From Gemmatimonadales bacterium (GTDB lineage Bacteria > Gemmatimonadota > Gemmatimonadetes > Gemmatimonadales > GWC2-71-9): a stretch of DNA of 60,983 bases. Numbering within the stretch: position 1 is the first letter of the stretch; each line of letters starts with the position of its first letter. The position numbers are program-made. Positions 36,901 through 39,900 of the stretch are shown in pieces. The DNA lies in assembly GCA_041613315.1 (NCBI GenBank), contig JBFJHJ010000017.1:1-60983 (forward strand), written 5' to 3'.

Positions 36901-39900
36901 ATCGACAGGCATCCCGTCTTCTGCCCCAGGGCGAGGAGCTGCAGCACGTCGGGCAGCGACGCTTCCTTGAGACTCCCCTTGATGGCCACTAGGTGAGCTC
37001 CTCGATCAGTCGTTCGGACGGATCGGGCCAGTACCACACCATCTTCTCGCGGCTCTGCACACCACCCGATGGCGACACCACGACGCCGCTGGTGCGCACG
37101 GCGGCGGGACGGCGGCGGGGCGGCGCCGCGCCCTCGATGAGCTCCCGCGCGAGGCCGGCGCTGGGAGCGACGCCCTGCGCATCGGCCCCACCCAGCACCC
37201 GCTGCACCAACCCGAGCAGCGCTCGCAGAGAGTCGGCCGGCCGCGCCGCGAGGTAGTCCGCCAGCTCCTCGTCCGCCGTCCCGAGACGTTCCTCCAACTT
37301 GCGCACGATGATCGCGCGGCGGAGATCGCGGTCCGGCGGCCCGATGGTCGCCACCAGGCCGCCCTCGAGACGGGAAACCAGGCGCTCATCGAGCCCCGGC
37401 ACATCGCGCGGCGGCAGCAGCGCCGTGAAGACGATCTGGCGGTTGGCGTCGGCCAGAAAGTTGAAAAGGTGGAACATTTCCTCCTGCGAGCGGTCCTTTC
37501 CCGCCAACAGGTGTACGTCGTCCAACAGGAACGCGGTGACATTACGGAACTGCGACCGCCAGCGGTCCACATGCTCCTCGTCGATCGCCCGGACCACCTC
37601 GTCCAGCAGCTGTTGCGCGGGCAGACACGCCACCCGCTGCCGGCGGCGCTCGGCGATCCCGTGGCCGATCGCGTGTAACAGGTGCGTTTTCCCCACCCCG
37701 GTCGGCCCCACCAGCACGAGCGGGTTGTATCGCTTCCCGGGCTGCTTGACCACCGCCCGAGCGGCGGTTAGCGCCACTTTGTTCGCGTCGCCGCCCACGA
37801 AGCCGTCGAACGACCACGCCGGCGACGGGCCGGGCGGCGGTGCCAGGCCGCGTTCGGCGGCTTCGACCAGATCCACCGCCTCATCCACCCGATCGGGATC
37901 GTGGAACACGGGATCGCTCGCGCGGTCGGGATCGATCCGTTCCATCGCCTGCTGCAGCCCACGGAGGCGCTCGATGTCCCGCTCGAACGCCTGGAGGACG
38001 TGCTCCGCCGAGGCGGGGACGTCTTGCTGAATGAGCTCCTCCAGCCGGGCGGTGCGGTACCCCTCGGCGTCCCACTTGAGGATCCCCTTGCCGAGGCGGG
38101 AGCGCCACACTTCCACCTGCTCCGTCACCGTGTGCGTGACGTCGGAGAGGAAGTCGGCAAACTCGTCGGTCGCCGCCTTGGCACGGGCCGGTGTCGAGCC
38201 GGCGCCCTTCCGGCGCGTGGGACGCGGTGTCGCGGGCGCCGCGCCCTCGGGCAGGTCCCCTTCAAGCAGCGCCTGGGCGGCGTCAGGCGCGAGCGGCGCC
38301 TCGCTGACCGCTTGAAACGCCACGAGGCGATTGAGCAGGCCCAGCAGCTCACGCACGTTCCCCAGCTCGAACCCCGCCGCCGTTTCGAGCACCCCGTCCA
38401 CGAACACCGAGCCCCGCTCCTCCGCCCGGCGCCGCAGGATCGCGAGCCGCGTCTCGTAGTCGGGAGCGCCGATGTCCACCACCAGCCCACCGTCAAACCG
38501 CGCAATGAGCCGCTCGTCGAGGTCGTTGAGCTCCGAGGGCGGTCGGTCGCTCGTGAGCACCACCTGCTTACCCTGGGATTGGAGGTGCGAGATCAGCCGC
38601 AACAGCTCCGCCTGGGTCTCCCGCCGATTCGTGAGGAACTGGACGTCGTCCACGAGCAGCACGTCGACACCCGCGAAGCGGTTACGGAACGCATCGCTCT
38701 GACCCGCCGCGACGGCCGTATGATACGCCTCGACGAACTCGTCGAGCGTGAGGTATTCGGCATGCAACCGGGGGGAGAGCTGCTTGGCCGTCTGGCCGAT
38801 GGCCATGAGCAGATGCGTCTTCCCGAGGCCCGTAGCGCTGTACACGAAGAGCGGGTTATAGGCCGTCCCCGGGGACTCGGCCACCGAGCGTGCCGCCGTC
38901 ACCGCGAGCTGGTTCGCGGAGCCGACGACGAAGCTGTCGAAGCTGAACCGCGGGTTCAACTCGACGGTCATTCGGGCGGGGCCTGGGAGAGCTTGCGCAA
39001 CACGAGCTCCGAGATCGCCTTGAGCGTCTCGAAGACGCCCTGCCCACGCAGCGCGTCGGCCGCGAAGCTGGGGGCGCTGCGGAAGTTCAAGGCCTCGTCC
39101 AGCTCCGGCGGGGTGAGCACGAGGTCCCCGGGCAGGTCCTGTTTGTTGTACTGCAGGACGAGCGGTACCTCGCGAACGTCCACCCCCTGCTCGAGAAAGT
39201 TGGCTTGGAGGTTCTGCAGGCTTTCGATGTTCTCGTCCAGCTGCCGCGCCTGGCTGTCGGCGACGAACACCACACCGTCGGCCCCCTGCAGCACCAGCTT
39301 TCGCGTGGCGTTGTAGTACACCTGCCCGGGCACGGTGTAGAGTTGGAACCGCGTCGTGAAGCCGGAGATACTGCCCAACTCCAGCGGCAGGAAATCGAAG
39401 AAGAGCGTGCGGTCGGTCTGCGTCGCGAGCGACACCATCCGCCCGCGCCGATCCTCCGGCACGCGGGCGTAGACGTACTGGAGATTGGTCGTCTTCCCCG
39501 AGCGTCCGGGCCCGTAATAGACGATCTTGCACGTGATCTCGCGGGTCGTGAAGTTGACCAGGGACACGACTCACCCTCCGAAGAGCGCTGAGAGACTTTC
39601 GTTCAACTCGCGCTCGAAGTCCGCCGCCAGCACGGGTTTCTTCCGCTCGACCGGCGGGCACGCCGCATCGAGCTGGGCCGCGAGGTCCTCGAAAAACAGC
39701 TGTACCAGACCCATGGACGATTCCGTCCCGTACACGACCAACGCGAGGAGACGCCCGCGGGGCGTCGCGAACCCCGCCAAGAAAATGCCGTGCTCCACAC
39801 CCTGATGGTTGAGCGCGGTGAACTCGCGCGTCTCCATCAGTTTGGCCAGCTCCACGGTGGAAGCCATGATCGCCGCCCCCAGCGCCGCGGCCGACATCAC

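What a model noticed while it worked through the whole genome (the two positions that open the first line are those of the whole stretch)
36989..38971. Tandem DnaA-type AAA+ protein without DNA-binding domain inside an MglA/MglB-PATAN-Che operon
g01398 (660 aa) consists of two complete DnaA-type AAA+ modules (about residues 5-237 and 385-613, each with Walker A, Walker B and a box VII arginine) joined by a helical linker. It has neither DnaA domain I nor the DNA-binding domain IV. It sits between a PATAN(DUF4388)-TPR protein and mglA-mglB in an 18-gene chemosensory operon, while the true dnaA (g02081) lies next to dnaN. I read it as a DnaA module exapted as an ATP-driven switch or scaffold of the MglA polarity/motility pathway, not a replication protein. 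New would be a role of the DnaA/Hda ATPase fold outside replication control and an unrecognised component of Ras-like GTPase polarity modules.
Evidence so far: Pfam finds Bac_DnaA twice (E 1.4e-55 at 5-166, E 1.7e-46 at 385-541) and no DnaA_N or Bac_DnaA_C (pfam.tsv; call 40). The best stretch to NCBIfam TIGR00362 DnaA covers only profile positions 103-336 of 437. Motifs read from the sequence: G-L-G-K-T / V-D-D-V and G-V-G-K-T / L-D-D-V. The AlphaFold2 model (23-sequence alignment, mean pLDDT 80, pTM 0.48) shows two alpha/beta AAA+ cores with lids, a helical linker at 272-375 and low-confidence stretches at 239-269 and 615-660. The tail holds the invariant residues E642, K643, W646, W648 and P649. 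In the neighbours table PatA_N lies next to Bac_DnaA in 935 of 1362 genomes of the order and in 1425 genomes in all. Full-length homologues (640-662 aa, [...]
(Added by a program. Inside this text positions count along the whole contig: contig position 1 is position 1 of the stretch shown here. "Call 12" and the like, gene names such as g00115 and contig names such as C1 are that model's own, and its searches are not shown. The text may have been shortened before it was handed on; [...] marks where a part breaks off. The agent that wrote the report below was given it as the finding of a first reader that could run no searches.)

Follow-up and report, generated by a model that had tools for sequence, protein, structure and literature searches.

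The report
DnaA-derived ATPase docked to PATAN-TPR
A marine Gemmatimonadota bacterium encodes a protein made of two copies of the ATP-binding core of the replication initiator DnaA, without its DNA-recognition parts, that sits in a cell-polarity and chemotaxis-like operon and seems to plug its tail into the neighbouring signalling protein, so a replication engine appears to have been reused as a signalling switch.

Summary
Window 36989-38971 (-) encodes a 660-aa protein with two DnaA-domain-III AAA+ modules and no DnaA_N or Bac_DnaA_C domain. The true dnaA lies next to dnaN on another contig.

The fixed partner is the PATAN-TPR gene just downstream, not MglA. The stop and start codons overlap by one base. 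The pair persists in a family that lacks mglA and che genes nearby. The two genes co-occur across 301 genomes of the phylum.

The N module keeps every catalytic residue but has lost the ssDNA-contact residues. The C module erodes yet keeps an invariant arginine finger.

A conserved C-terminal tail (E-K-x-V-W-x-W-P-x4-R-h-h-E-E) is predicted to dock in the partner's TPR groove (ipSAE 0.81, best control 0.11). Single-module variants keep the tail. Two genomes without the ATPase have the groove truncated.

The partner's PATAN domain carries an MshEN-type c-di-GMP-binding insertion. In a Fermentibacteria genome, DnaA-type modules fused to MshEN lie inside a type IV pilus cluster.

Most likely this is an ATP-gated adaptor of a pilus/polarity pathway. 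No experiment exists, and I found nothing in print. This scan has noted the family at least 28 times in other genomes.

The parts
36989..38971 (-). Gene for the tandem DnaA-type AAA+ protein (660 aa, P0001)
   Evidence: Open frame. Two Bac_DnaA stretches, no DnaA_N or Bac_DnaA_C. Full-length homologues of 633-662 aa at 58-80% identity.
38252..38971 (-). N module (residues 1-240): complete AAA+ site. K51, D108, D109, D142, R154 and R207 are kept in 29 of 29 sequences, R158 in 25 of 29. The ssDNA-contact positions are changed (H84, E118).
   Evidence: Alignment to E. coli DnaA with numbering checked on L036. Foldseek top hit is B. subtilis DnaA domain III 8bv3_A (TM 0.94 on the target, 42% identity). 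27 of the 35 invariant columns of the protein lie here.
38162..38251 (-). Disordered spacer (residues 241-270)
   Evidence: pLDDT below 50. Mean top-residue frequency 0.25.
37832..38161 (-). Helical linker (residues 271-380), conserved, no family match
   Evidence: Helices 270-302, 308-315, 322-346 and 359-375 at high pLDDT. F274, W289, R290, G304, L336, D358 and P359 are conserved. The linker is kept in the single-module variants of G084 and G283.
37127..37831 (-). C module (residues 381-615): eroding ATP site with an invariant arginine finger. R534 is kept in 29 of 29 sequences and R530 in 28 of 29. The sensor I Asp is kept in only 11 of 29 (L518 here). Walker A and B are lost in the 4 sequences of family f7.
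   Evidence: Best NCBIfam stretch is to Hda TIGR03420 (384-590), but the total score of 179.1 is under the 194.8 cut-off.
36992..37063 (-). C-terminal tail motif (residues 637-660: G-V-Q-S-R-E-K-M-V-W-Y-W-P-D-P-S-E-R-L-I-E-E-L-T), the predicted TPR ligand
   Evidence: Disordered in the monomer model. The motif is present in 39 of 41 family sequences and in 56 of 73 library representatives of 560 aa or more. It is kept in the single-module variants. Residues 637-660 are the ones that touch the partner in the complex model.
35370..36989 (-). PATAN-TPR partner gene (539 aa from the GTG at 36989). Its start overlaps the stop of the ATPase gene by one base.
   Evidence: DUF4388/PATAN plus TPR repeats. 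TAGTG junction. The same one-base overlap occurs in 13 of 18 other loci. It is adjacent to the ATPase gene in 20 of 20 loci and co-occurs with it across the phylum.
36660..36821 (-). MshEN_N-type (c-di-GMP-binding type) four-helix insertion in the PATAN domain (residues 57-110 of the partner)
   Evidence: Two 24-residue motifs at 57-80 and 87-110 resemble RLGxx(L/V/I)(L/V/I)xxG(L/V/I)(L/V/I)xxxxLxxxLxxQ (motif text from PMC5013675). The model of residues 1-180 (pLDDT 83) best matches MshE with c-di-GMP, 5htl: VIA Z 9.8, rmsd 2.0 over 59 residues, 30% identity, model 55-114 on chain 7-65. Next is PilF GSPII-B with c-di-GMP, 8pdk, Z 8.8.
35508..36137 (-). TPR groove predicted to hold the tail (partner residues 285-494; includes invariant L292, N323, D465, G491 and near-invariant K461)
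   Evidence: Interface list; conservation. Residues from about 460 onward are deleted in the two genomes that lack the ATPase gene.
38968..39567 (-). mglA-type small GTPase gene, translationally coupled upstream (ATGA)
Evidence: Weak Arf and Gtr1_RagA matches. Orthologues at 71-86% identity lie directly upstream in most loci of the order. The junction is read.
39571..41191 (-). Three Roadblock/LC7 genes (mglB-like 39571-40041; 40038-40409; TPR-Roadblock 40385-41191)
   Evidence: Robl_LC7 matches.
41184..48386 (-). Upstream half of the array: second PATAN-TPR (41184-42335), 895-aa TPR protein, cheC, cheA, cheY, cheW
   Evidence: Pfam. Gene order is conserved in 16 loci of families f1-f4.
30387..35562 (-). 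Downstream half: cheR, cheD (34061-34561), cheB, two cheW, TPR protein (31247-32107) and a peptidase-MA-like gene (30387 to about 31250)
   Evidence: Pfam. The peptidase-MA-like gene follows the pair also in the 4 f7 loci.

Best explanation
The gene encodes a neofunctionalised paralogue of DnaA made by tandem duplication of domain III. It is not an initiator.

Proposed mechanism:
- It is the ATP-binding subunit of a two-protein module with the PATAN-TPR protein encoded immediately downstream.
- The N module is the working ATPase site.
- The C module is a degenerating partner module. Its invariant arginine finger most likely completes the N site in cis or between molecules, as Hda does for DnaA.
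- A disordered C-terminal tail with a conserved Trp-Pro/acidic motif tethers the ATPase to the concave face of the partner's TPR domain.
- The partner brings a PATAN output domain, which in cyanobacteria binds the pilus motor proteins PilB1 and PilC, and an MshEN-type insertion that probably binds c-di-GMP.
- In the order Gemmatimonadales the pair has been built into a Che plus MglA/MglB/Roadblock operon. The ATP state of the module would then gate how chemosensory, GTPase and c-di-GMP signals reach the type IV pilus or polarity machinery.

Shown by computation: the architecture, motif asymmetry, gene coupling, co-occurrence, a passing co-fold with controls, and the MshEN-like fold.

Inferred: ATP hydrolysis, the cis arginine finger, c-di-GMP binding, the pilus output, and any contact with MglA.
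For: (1) Architecture and loss of DNA functions. There are two Bac_DnaA modules and no domain I or IV. In the N module the ssDNA-contact residues are changed: V211 to H/Q/T, and R245 to E in 26 of 29 sequences. All catalytic residues stay in 29 of 29.

(2) Asymmetry. The C-module arginine finger is kept in 29 of 29 sequences. Its sensor I Asp is kept in 11 of 29, and its Walker motifs are lost in 4 of 29. 27 invariant columns lie in N against 5 in C.

(3) Gene coupling. The ATPase gene lies next to the PATAN-TPR gene in 20 of 20 loci from six families. A one-base stop/start overlap is seen here and in 13 of 18 other loci.

(4) Co-occurrence in the same 301 genomes. Outside the order, all 21 genomes with the PATAN-TPR protein (E at most 1e-60) have 2 or more DnaA-type matches, against 5 of the other 83. 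In f7 the same 11 of 47 genomes hold both. In f6 neither is found in 23.

(5) Co-fold of the partner (539 aa) with tail residues 601-660. ipSAE was 0.81, 0.81 and 0.77, with best control 0.11. That mark was reached by 116 of 157 solved complexes and 2 of 215 mismatched pairs. The runs agree in at least 64% of contacts, and partner pLDDT is at least 52. The contacts are tail residues 637-660 and groove residues that include invariant N323 and D465.

(6) Natural variants. Three genomes have a single N-type module that still ends in the tail motif and still precedes a full-length partner. Two genomes without any such gene have the partner cut at about residue 460, which removes part of the predicted groove.

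(7) Fusions. A Sumerlaeia protein joins TPR repeats to a module that is sister to the N modules (support 0.993). One representative carries a receiver domain in place of the tail.

(8) Pilus link.
- PATAN is the PilB1/PilC-binding output domain in Synechocystis (abstract of 10.1101/2021.06.11.447907).
- The partner's insertion matches MshE and PilF c-di-GMP domains.
- In a Ca. Fermentibacteria contig, four genes with MshEN domains, three of them fused to DnaA-type AAA+ modules, lie between pilD and pilB-pilT-pilC-pilS.
- The window's genome has five PilB/PilT-type ATPases. No flagellin was found, at 83% completeness.
Against: - No experiment of any kind exists, and no expression data were found.
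- The co-fold is a model's confidence, not a measurement. TPR-peptide complexes are common among solved structures, so the pass may partly reflect likeness. I could not test the tail against the other five TPR proteins of the operon because only one job was allowed.
- pTM 0.52 leaves the relative position of the two modules open, so the cis arginine finger is untested.
- The single-module variant of G084 has Gln at both box VII arginine positions, by my reading of the sequence printed. At least that form cannot work through an arginine finger of its own.
- The C module keeps DnaA-like V211, R227 and R245 equivalents in 25 of 29 sequences, which the model does not explain.
- The Pfam MshEN profile does not hit the insertion, even at E up to 10. 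4 of 19 partner orthologues match neither motif pattern.
- The link between the Fermentibacteria modules and this family is weak in the tree (support 0.71).
- Related genomes are not independent, so the co-occurrence counts overstate the evidence.
Confidence: 0.6

Rival explanations
1. A replication regulator of the Hda kind. The invariant arginine finger of the C module (or the whole protein) inactivates DnaA-ATP, and the operon position merely couples replication control to polarity or the cell cycle.
For: - Both modules are DnaA-like and keep the DnaA-DnaA contact residues: R281 equivalent in 29 and 28 of 29 sequences, and L290 equivalent in 29 of 29 in both modules.
- The C module's best NCBIfam stretch is to Hda, and it keeps V211, R227 and R245 equivalents.
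- The genome has no separate Hda.
- The array lies between divIVA..ileS-lspA-rluD and the mraW..ftsZ division cluster. That position is kept in three other genomes.
Against: - No exposed clamp-binding motif was found. The only Q-x-x-L-type matches fall in the buried helix after Walker B, whereas E. coli Hda shows QLSLPL at its N terminus.
- The Hda model score is below its cut-off.
- In the tree both modules group together, away from E. coli Hda, which sits on a branch of about 2.4.
- The gene co-occurs with a PATAN-TPR gene, not with dnaA or dnaN. It was not found in f6 (23 genomes searched) or in 36 of 47 f7 genomes. Those have one DnaA-type match at most, so the phylum does not generally need such a factor.
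- The tail is predicted to bind the TPR partner.
Confidence: 0.1
2. The same ATPase/PATAN-TPR module, but with an output other than pili: polar growth, budding or division-site control, or another polarity-dependent process.
For: - The position next to the dcw cluster and near divIVA is conserved.
- In f7 and in G204 the pair stands directly after rluD, with a peptidase-MA-like gene and a CheY-like gene and no pilus or mgl genes nearby.
- No pilus gene lies in the window.
Against: - The synteny with rluD and dcw may be plain conserved gene order.
- PATAN and MshEN-type domains are tied to pilus motors where they have been studied.
- The Fermentibacteria fusions lie inside a pil cluster.
Confidence: 0.15
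3. A nucleotide-bound scaffold without a catalytic cycle: a pseudo-enzyme that only bridges TPR and PATAN proteins.
For: - The C-module site erodes.
- One single-module variant lacks both box VII arginines.
- The relative orientation of the modules is not fixed in the model.
Against: In the N module the Walker A Lys, both Walker B Asp, the sensor I Asp and the sensor II Arg are kept in 29 of 29 sequences across six families. The C-module arginine finger is also kept in 29 of 29. That pattern is expected under selection for hydrolysis.
Confidence: 0.1

Closest known systems
DnaA, bacterial replication initiator (domain III; PF00308, TIGR00362; structures 8bv3, 8btg, 2z4r, 3r8f, 2hcb)
   Same: Both modules share the AAA+ fold and motifs. 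The N module is 42% identical to B. subtilis domain III with TM 0.94 on the target. Walker A/B, sensor I/II and box VII are all present.
   Different: - No domain I, II or IV.
- Two modules in one chain with a helical linker.
- ssDNA-contact residues changed in the N module.
- Its own C-terminal peptide motif.
- Encoded in a signalling array, not beside dnaN.
Hda, the DnaA-related inactivator of DnaA-ATP (TIGR03420; 3bos, 3sc3)
   Same: A DnaA-type AAA+ module without DNA-binding domains whose key working residue is an arginine finger. The C module's best family stretch is to Hda, and PDB sequence matches are at E 6e-07.
   Different: The total score is under the family cut-off. There is no N-terminal clamp-binding motif. 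The form is tandem. It groups with the N module, not with E. coli Hda.
PatA-type PATAN regulators of cyanobacteria (PixE, PixG and others) acting on PilB1/PilC
   Same: The partner protein carries the same PATAN (DUF4388) domain, which is the output domain there. Both sit in chemotaxis-like gene sets.
   Different: Here PATAN is joined to TPR repeats instead of a receiver domain and is paired with a DnaA-type ATPase. No such ATPase is mentioned in the abstract or passages I read.
Myxococcus xanthus Frz chemosensory system acting on the MglA/MglB/RomR/MglC polarity module
   Same: A Che pathway, a Ras-like GTPase and Roadblock proteins act together; here they are in one operon (passages of PMC4316618 read).
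   Different: That paper reports PATAN genes only occasionally near mglA. 'DnaA' does not occur in its text (0 occurrences in the listing), and the 'AAA' and 'ATPase' passages shown concern other proteins. In M. xanthus the partners are not encoded with mglA.
MshEN / GSPII-B c-di-GMP-binding domain of MshE, PilB and PilF (5htl, 8pdk)
   Same: The helical insertion in the partner's PATAN domain matches it in fold and in the tandem 24-residue motif. In Fermentibacteria the true MshEN domain is fused to DnaA-type modules.
   Different: Motif 1 is degenerate here (T and K at two hydrophobic positions). The spacer is 6 residues, not 5. The Pfam MshEN profile does not detect it. Binding is untested.
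TPR domains that hold C-terminal peptides (for example Hop with the EEVD tails of Hsp70/Hsp90; recalled, not tested here)
   Same: A disordered acidic C-terminal tail lies in the concave face of a TPR solenoid, with an invariant Asn contacting the peptide.
   Different: The motif differs (E-K-x-V-W-x-W-P ... R-h-h-E-E). It spans about 24 residues over some five repeats in the model.

Membership tests
DnaA replication initiator (TIGR00362) | N-terminal domain I (DnaA_N) | tested here: not met
   No DnaA_N match. The protein starts at the first residues of domain III. The genome's true DnaA has DnaA_N.
DnaA replication initiator (TIGR00362) | C-terminal DnaA-box-binding domain IV (Bac_DnaA_C) | tested here: not met
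   No Bac_DnaA_C match. The TIGR00362 stretch ends at profile position 336 of 437.
DnaA replication initiator (TIGR00362) | AAA+ domain III with Walker A/B, sensor I/II and box VII arginines | tested here: met
   The N module keeps all of them in 29 of 29 sequences, except R285 in 25 of 29. The C module keeps them only in part.
DnaA replication initiator (TIGR00362) | ssDNA-contact residues of the AAA+ domain (E. coli V211, R245; residue roles recalled from the literature) | tested here: not met
   N module: H/Q/T at 211, and E at 245 in 26 of 29 sequences. The C module keeps them in 25 of 29.
DnaA replication initiator (TIGR00362) | Encoded at the origin region beside dnaN | tested here: not met
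   The gene lies between mglA and a PATAN-TPR gene. The dnaA-dnaN pair is on contig C33.
Hda (TIGR03420) | Score over the curated cut-off as a single-module protein of about 230 aa | tested here: not met
   179.1 bits against a cut-off of 194.8; the protein has 660 aa and two modules.
Hda (TIGR03420) | N-terminal clamp-binding motif (QL[SP]LPL type; seen in E. coli Hda) | tested here: not met
   A pattern scan of 41 family sequences finds matches only in a buried AAA+ helix or at scattered non-conserved sites, and none at a terminus.
Hda (TIGR03420) | Arginine finger that acts on DnaA-bound ATP | not testable with these tools
   The arginine (R534) is invariant. Its target cannot be computed here.
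Undescribed tandem DnaA-like ATPase family paired with PATAN-TPR (Gemmatimonadota) | N-type DnaA module plus the C-terminal [ED][KR]-x4-W-P ... h-h-E-E tail | tested here: met
   Tail found in 39 of 41 family sequences and in 56 of 73 representatives of 560 aa or more. Present in the window protein.
Undescribed tandem DnaA-like ATPase family paired with PATAN-TPR (Gemmatimonadota) | PATAN-TPR gene immediately downstream | tested here: met
   TAGTG overlap here; 20 of 20 loci.
MglA/MglB polarity module (component of) | Physical or genetic interaction with MglA | not tested
   There is only gene coupling (ATGA overlap) and presence of MglA in all genomes with the pair.
Classic tandem AAA+ (p97/Cdc48, Rix7 type D1-D2 rings) | Stacked D1-D2 arrangement | tested here: inconclusive
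   Whole-chain Foldseek alignments to p97 and Rix7 have TM 0.27-0.31 and rmsd 23-28 A. The model's own domain arrangement is uncertain (pTM 0.52).

The most novel reading that the evidence does not exclude
The protein is a polarity-tethered DnaA inactivator. While held on the PATAN-TPR/c-di-GMP/MglA platform at a cell pole or pilus base, its invariant C-module arginine finger (R534) hydrolyses ATP on the true initiator DnaA. Surface motility, polarity or second-messenger state would then directly license or block chromosome replication, in a phylum that has no Hda and whose type genus is described as budding (recalled).
Probability: 0.08. Interest if true: 0.9.

Novelty: new variant of a known kind. 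Interest (0 to 1): 0.72.

Why it matters
- The DnaA/Hda ATPase fold is known only from replication control. A conserved family that keeps the engine, drops the DNA parts and is wired to PATAN, TPR, MglA, Che and c-di-GMP-type modules would be the first use of an initiator-clade AAA+ module as a signalling switch.
- It gives a concrete, testable partner interface: a 24-residue tail in a TPR groove, with named residues.
- It points to an unrecognised component of Ras-like GTPase and type IV pilus control in a widespread but little-studied phylum.
- The Fermentibacteria pilus cluster suggests the theme is wider than one phylum.
- There is a practical annotation point. Pipelines name these proteins 'chromosomal replication initiator protein DnaA', because two modules together pass the TIGR00362 cut-off. 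This can mislead origin and replication annotation in Gemmatimonadota genomes.

Tried and rejected
- **Origin as a DnaA plus Hda fusion: rejected.** N and C modules are sisters (support 1.0, only 0.49 after more taxa were added), apart from E. coli Hda. One row (DnaA_L046) was a wrong ORF on a branch of 3.9 and was dropped from the second tree.
- **Expression:** no RNA holder listed. The 5 runs that hold the stretch are marine metagenome DNA, and 4 of them are possibly the source. No reads were laid.
- **Pfam MshEN profile on the PATAN insertions:** no match at E up to 10. The link rests on the motif and the fold.
- **PATAN core outside the insertion:** nothing above Z 4.9 in pdb_via_wide.
- **Whole-protein Foldseek:** apart from DnaA, only generic tandem AAA+ chains at rmsd above 23 A.
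- **Clamp-binding motif scan:** negative.
- **Literature searches**. The terms were MglA/DnaA/PATAN; Gemmatimonas + MglA; DnaA-like/AAA+/PATAN; MshEN + PATAN; DnaA paralog/homolog/related + type IV pili/twitching; Gemmatimonadota/type IV pili/chemosensory. No listed title or abstract start concerns this family; I opened only five of the listed papers, by passage or abstract. The library covers open-access papers and bioRxiv only.
- **Earlier notes near this place:** none.
- **Cis arginine finger:** the structure tool returns no coordinates and pTM is 0.52, so it could not be tested.
- **Contact positions in the TPR groove** are only modestly more conserved than other TPR positions: 0.63 against 0.55, one-sided Mann-Whitney p 0.019, and the sequences are related.

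
Full report
**1. The observation.**
Window 36989-38971 (-) is an open frame of 660 codons. Pfam finds Bac_DnaA in two stretches (E 5.3e-103 for the protein) and neither DnaA_N nor Bac_DnaA_C. In the genome search the modules score E 6.4e-56 and 8.1e-47.

NCBIfam's DnaA model is passed (483.5 against 343.9 bits) only because two modules add up. The best stretch covers profile positions 103-336 of 437. The second module's best stretch is to Hda, whose cut-off is not reached (179.1 against 194.8).

The gene start overlaps the stop of an mglA-type gene (ATGA). Its stop overlaps the GTG start of a PATAN-TPR gene by one base (TAGTG).

The assembly (2.63 Mb, 52 contigs, 83% complete) has just one other Bac_DnaA match. 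That is a true dnaA with DnaA_N, Bac_DnaA and Bac_DnaA_C, followed by dnaN. Source names of homologues place the organism in Gemmatimonadota/Gemmatimonadales. The runs that hold the DNA are marine metagenomes.

**2. The surrounding array.**
About 19 genes lie on the minus strand with gaps or overlaps of a few bases. By the Pfam results they are, in order:
- cheW, cheY, cheA, cheC and an 895-aa TPR protein;
- a first PATAN-TPR, a TPR-Roadblock, a Roadblock, an mglB-like Roadblock and mglA;
- the tandem ATPase and the second PATAN-TPR;
- cheR, cheD, cheB, two cheW, a TPR protein and a peptidase-MA-like protein.

There is no receptor gene in the array. Six MCP genes and a second cheA lie elsewhere. 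The genome has five PilB/PilT-type ATPases, and no flagellin was found (83% complete).

Upstream lie divIVA, ileS, lspA, a dksA-like gene and rluD. Downstream lies the mraW-ftsI-mur-ftsA-ftsZ cluster. That placement recurs in three other genomes.

**3. Who is the constant neighbour?**
I fetched 20-kb neighbourhoods from 20 genomes of six families and mapped the window's proteins on them.
- The PATAN-TPR gene directly follows the ATPase gene in 20 of 20 loci.
- mglA directly precedes it in the 16 loci of families f1-f4.
- In the 4 loci of family f7 there is no mglA, mglB or che gene. There the order is rluD, ATPase, PATAN-TPR, a peptidase-MA-like gene and a CheY-like gene.
- Those f7 genomes have one mglA-type gene elsewhere, more than 1 Mb away in the two single-contig genomes.
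- The one-base stop/start overlap with the PATAN-TPR gene is seen in 13 of 18 loci.

**4. Phyletic pattern.**
The same 301 genomes of the phylum were searched with three proteins: the ATPase, the partner and MglA. Four of them (G057, G182, G157, G097) are flagged unpublished and are included in the tallies.
- Read from the table, a best E below 1e-70 occurs in 121 of 125 f1, 52 of 69 f2 and 3 of 3 f3 genomes.
- The partner (E at most 1e-60) is found in f1 123/125, f2 65/69, f3 3/3, f4 5/6, f5 1/1, f6 0/23, f7 11/47, f8 4/4 and f9-f12 0/22.
- Outside the order, all 21 genomes with the partner have two or more DnaA-type matches. Of the 83 without it, 5 do (in f11 and f12, not followed up).
- In f7 the same 11 handles hold both genes.
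- All 21 also have an MglA match. So do 14 genomes without the pair.
- Kin are not independent, so these counts describe a pattern; they are not a test.

**5. The exceptions are informative.**
I looked at five f2 genomes in which the partner was found but the tandem form was not.
- G084, G283 and G204 carry a single N-type module directly upstream of a full-length partner. G084 and G283 keep the linker; G204 does not. All three proteins end in the family's tail motif.
- G114 has no DnaA-like gene at the site, and its partner stops at about residue 460 of 539.
- G047, of another genus, shows the same loss and the same truncation. It has also lost the helical insertion of its PATAN domain.
- G072 has only a partial partner match.

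So the minimal conserved unit is an N-type module, the tail and the partner. Where the ATPase is gone, the part of the partner predicted to hold the tail is gone too. That is two genomes, which may not be independent.

**6. Anatomy of the two modules.**
Positions are in E. coli DnaA numbering, checked on the K-12 gene. The roles of these residues are recalled from the DnaA literature.

| Residue (E. coli) | N module (29 sequences) | C module (29 sequences) |
|---|---|---|
| K178 | 29 | 25 |
| D235 | 29 | 25 |
| D236 | 29 | 23 |
| D269 (sensor I) | 29 | 11 |
| R281 | 29 | 28 |
| R285 (arginine finger) | 25 | 29 |
| R334 (sensor II) | 29 | 20 |

- At the ssDNA-contact positions, the N module has H/Q/T/other at V211 and Glu at R245 in 26 of 29 sequences.
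- The C module has no P-loop Lys in the four f7 sequences, and it keeps V/I/L211, R227 and R245.
- In the window protein the residues are K51, D108, D109, D142, R154, R158 and R207 in N. In C they are K428, D484, D485, L518, R530, R534 and R583.
- 27 invariant columns lie in N and 5 in C.

This complementary pattern fits one consensus site, the N module's ATP pocket completed by the C module's arginine finger, with a second site decaying. Coordinates are not returned and pTM is 0.52, so the geometry is inferred.

A tree puts N and C together and apart from true DnaAs of the phylum, E. coli DnaA and E. coli Hda. Support is 1.0 with 66 rows and falls to 0.49 with 76 rows. The origin is therefore an internal duplication of a DnaA-like domain III.

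**7. The tail and its predicted receptor.**
Residues 616-660 are disordered in the monomer model. They nevertheless carry E642 and W648 (invariant) and K643, W646, P649, R654 and E657 (90% or more). The motif occurs in 39 of 41 family sequences. It also occurs in 56 of 73 representatives of 560 aa or more among the 150 best hits of an all-library search, down to about 35% identity.

- ipSAE was 0.81, 0.81 and 0.77, and the best of three controls was 0.11.
- The mark was reached by 116 of 157 solved complexes and 2 of 215 mismatched pairs. These counts hold only roughly, because my own alignments were used.
- The runs agree in at least 64% of contacts, and partner pLDDT is at least 52.
- Tail residues 637-660 lie along groove residues 285-494. 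The lowest-error pairs join N323 to 655-656, and Q458, K461, N462 and D465 to K643.
- N323 and D465 are invariant and K461 is 95% conserved in the partner alignment.

The model supports binding but does not show it. TPR-peptide complexes are well represented among solved structures, and the other TPR proteins of the operon were not tested.

**8. The partner looks like a c-di-GMP receptor.**
- The motif as printed in PMC5013675 (abstract and passages) is RLGxx(L/V/I)(L/V/I)xxG(L/V/I)(L/V/I)xxxxLxxxLxxQ, twice, with a 5-residue spacer.
- The partner has RLGDILTKNGKITQQQLDAGIEQQ at 57-80 and RLGEILVEQGAVSRRDLEHYMRVQ at 87-110.
- 15 of 19 orthologues and the operon's other PATAN-TPR match the paper's relaxed pattern or a core pattern at one or both sites; 4 match neither.
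- A model of residues 1-180 (pLDDT 83, pTM 0.75) has MshE with c-di-GMP (5htl) as its best match. This holds in Foldseek (E 0.06, probability 1.00, rmsd 1.1-1.4 over 56-58 columns, 31-32% identity).
- It also holds in the Foldseek-independent search (Z 9.8, rmsd 2.0, 59 residues, model 55-114 on chain 7-65). The next hits are PilF GSPII-B with c-di-GMP (Z 8.8), PilF, a PilB N domain and XpsE-N.
- Helical bundles have a high background, and the Pfam MshEN profile is silent, so binding remains to be shown.

**9. Links to pili from other lineages.**
Among the library representatives there are several fusions:
- MshEN with two DnaA-type modules (1990 and 1876 aa);
- the tandem with a C-terminal receiver domain in place of the tail (738 aa);
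- TPR repeats with one DnaA-type module (1376 aa; a source names it Ca. Sumerlaeia). Its module is sister to the N modules with support 0.993.

The 1990-aa protein lies on a Ca. Fermentibacteria contig. Its gene order is pilD; four consecutive genes with MshEN domains, three of them fused to DnaA-type AAA+ modules; a TonB_C gene; pilB (MshEN plus T2SSE); one gene with no Pfam match at E at most 1e-4; pilT; pilC; a PilS-like kinase; and another PilT-type gene.

So the MshEN and DnaA-type modules are covalently fused in one phylum and are predicted to be joined non-covalently in another. Whether the Fermentibacteria modules share the duplication with this family is unresolved (support 0.71).

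In Synechocystis the PATAN domain is the output domain that binds PilB1 and PilC (abstract of 10.1101/2021.06.11.447907; passages of PMC9090330).

**10. What is known.**
PMC4316618 (passages read) reports PATAN genes occasionally near group 1 and 5 mglA. 'DnaA' does not occur in its text (0 occurrences in the listing), and the passages shown for 'AAA' and 'ATPase' concern other proteins.

Six full-text searches listed no title or abstract start on this family. Sources label the proteins 'chromosomal replication initiator protein DnaA', 'DnaA/Hda family protein' or 'ATP-binding protein'.

This scan has noted the family at least 28 times in other genomes, with concordant readings. One note (e1-7862837) reported the tail-to-PATAN-TPR docking. 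I ran my own test before reading it.

**11. Verdict.**
The protein is a DnaA-derived, non-initiator AAA+ protein. Its constant partner is a PATAN-TPR protein that looks like a c-di-GMP receptor.

The pair most likely forms an ATP-gated adaptor in a type IV pilus or polarity pathway, which in Gemmatimonadales is merged with Che and MglA/MglB modules (confidence 0.6). A RIDA-like action on DnaA is not excluded (about 0.1). All functional steps are inferred.

Noticed in passing
window 36660-36821 (second PATAN-TPR) and residues 89-112 of the first PATAN-TPR (gene 41184-42335): The 'alpha-helical insertion' of both PATAN domains carries MshEN-type c-di-GMP-binding motifs and folds like MshE and PilF c-di-GMP domains. 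Both PATAN-TPR proteins may be c-di-GMP receptors.
   Followed up: yes
L048 4309-15923 (Ca. Fermentibacteria contig JAUXFG010000024.1): Four consecutive genes with MshEN domains (983, 436, 409 and 1993 aa), three of them fused to DnaA-type AAA+ modules, lie between pilD and pilB-pilT-pilC-pilS. This is a second, differently built marriage of DnaA-type ATPases with pilus genes.
   Followed up: partly
window 12910-28204 and 48343-54753: The signalling array is wedged between divIVA..ileS-lspA-dksA-like-rluD and the division and cell-wall cluster (mraW to ftsZ), all on one strand. The placement recurs in G142, G103 and G047. The minimal pair in f7 also follows rluD.
   Followed up: partly
genomes G003, G018 (f11) and G006, G009, G015 (f12): Five genomes of other classes of the phylum have a second DnaA-type match but no PATAN-TPR partner. 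This may be a different DnaA paralogue.
   Followed up: no
protein P0184 (673 aa): A protein with two DnaA-type AAA+ modules that does keep the Bac_DnaA_C DNA-binding domain. Its two modules are each other's closest relatives (support 1.0). This is an independent duplication within a real DnaA.
   Followed up: partly
G000 and most genomes of the order: Two MglA-type genes per genome: the operon copy (E about 1e-100 to the window's) and a second copy at about 1e-60. Genomes that lack the operon keep only the second kind.
   Followed up: no
L019 8903-10907 (G045): The ATPase gene matches in two frames, with the last 50 or so codons shifted. The in-frame reading ends without the tail motif. This is a frameshift or an assembly error.
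   Followed up: no
window 34558-35562 and 30387-31706: The longest ORFs of cheR and of the peptidase-MA-like gene overlap their upstream neighbours by 193 and about 460 bases. Pfam matches begin at residue 73 of cheR. The true starts are probably further downstream.
   Followed up: no
protein P0239 (738 aa): A tandem DnaA-like protein that ends in a response-regulator receiver domain where the family normally has the TPR-binding tail.
   Followed up: no
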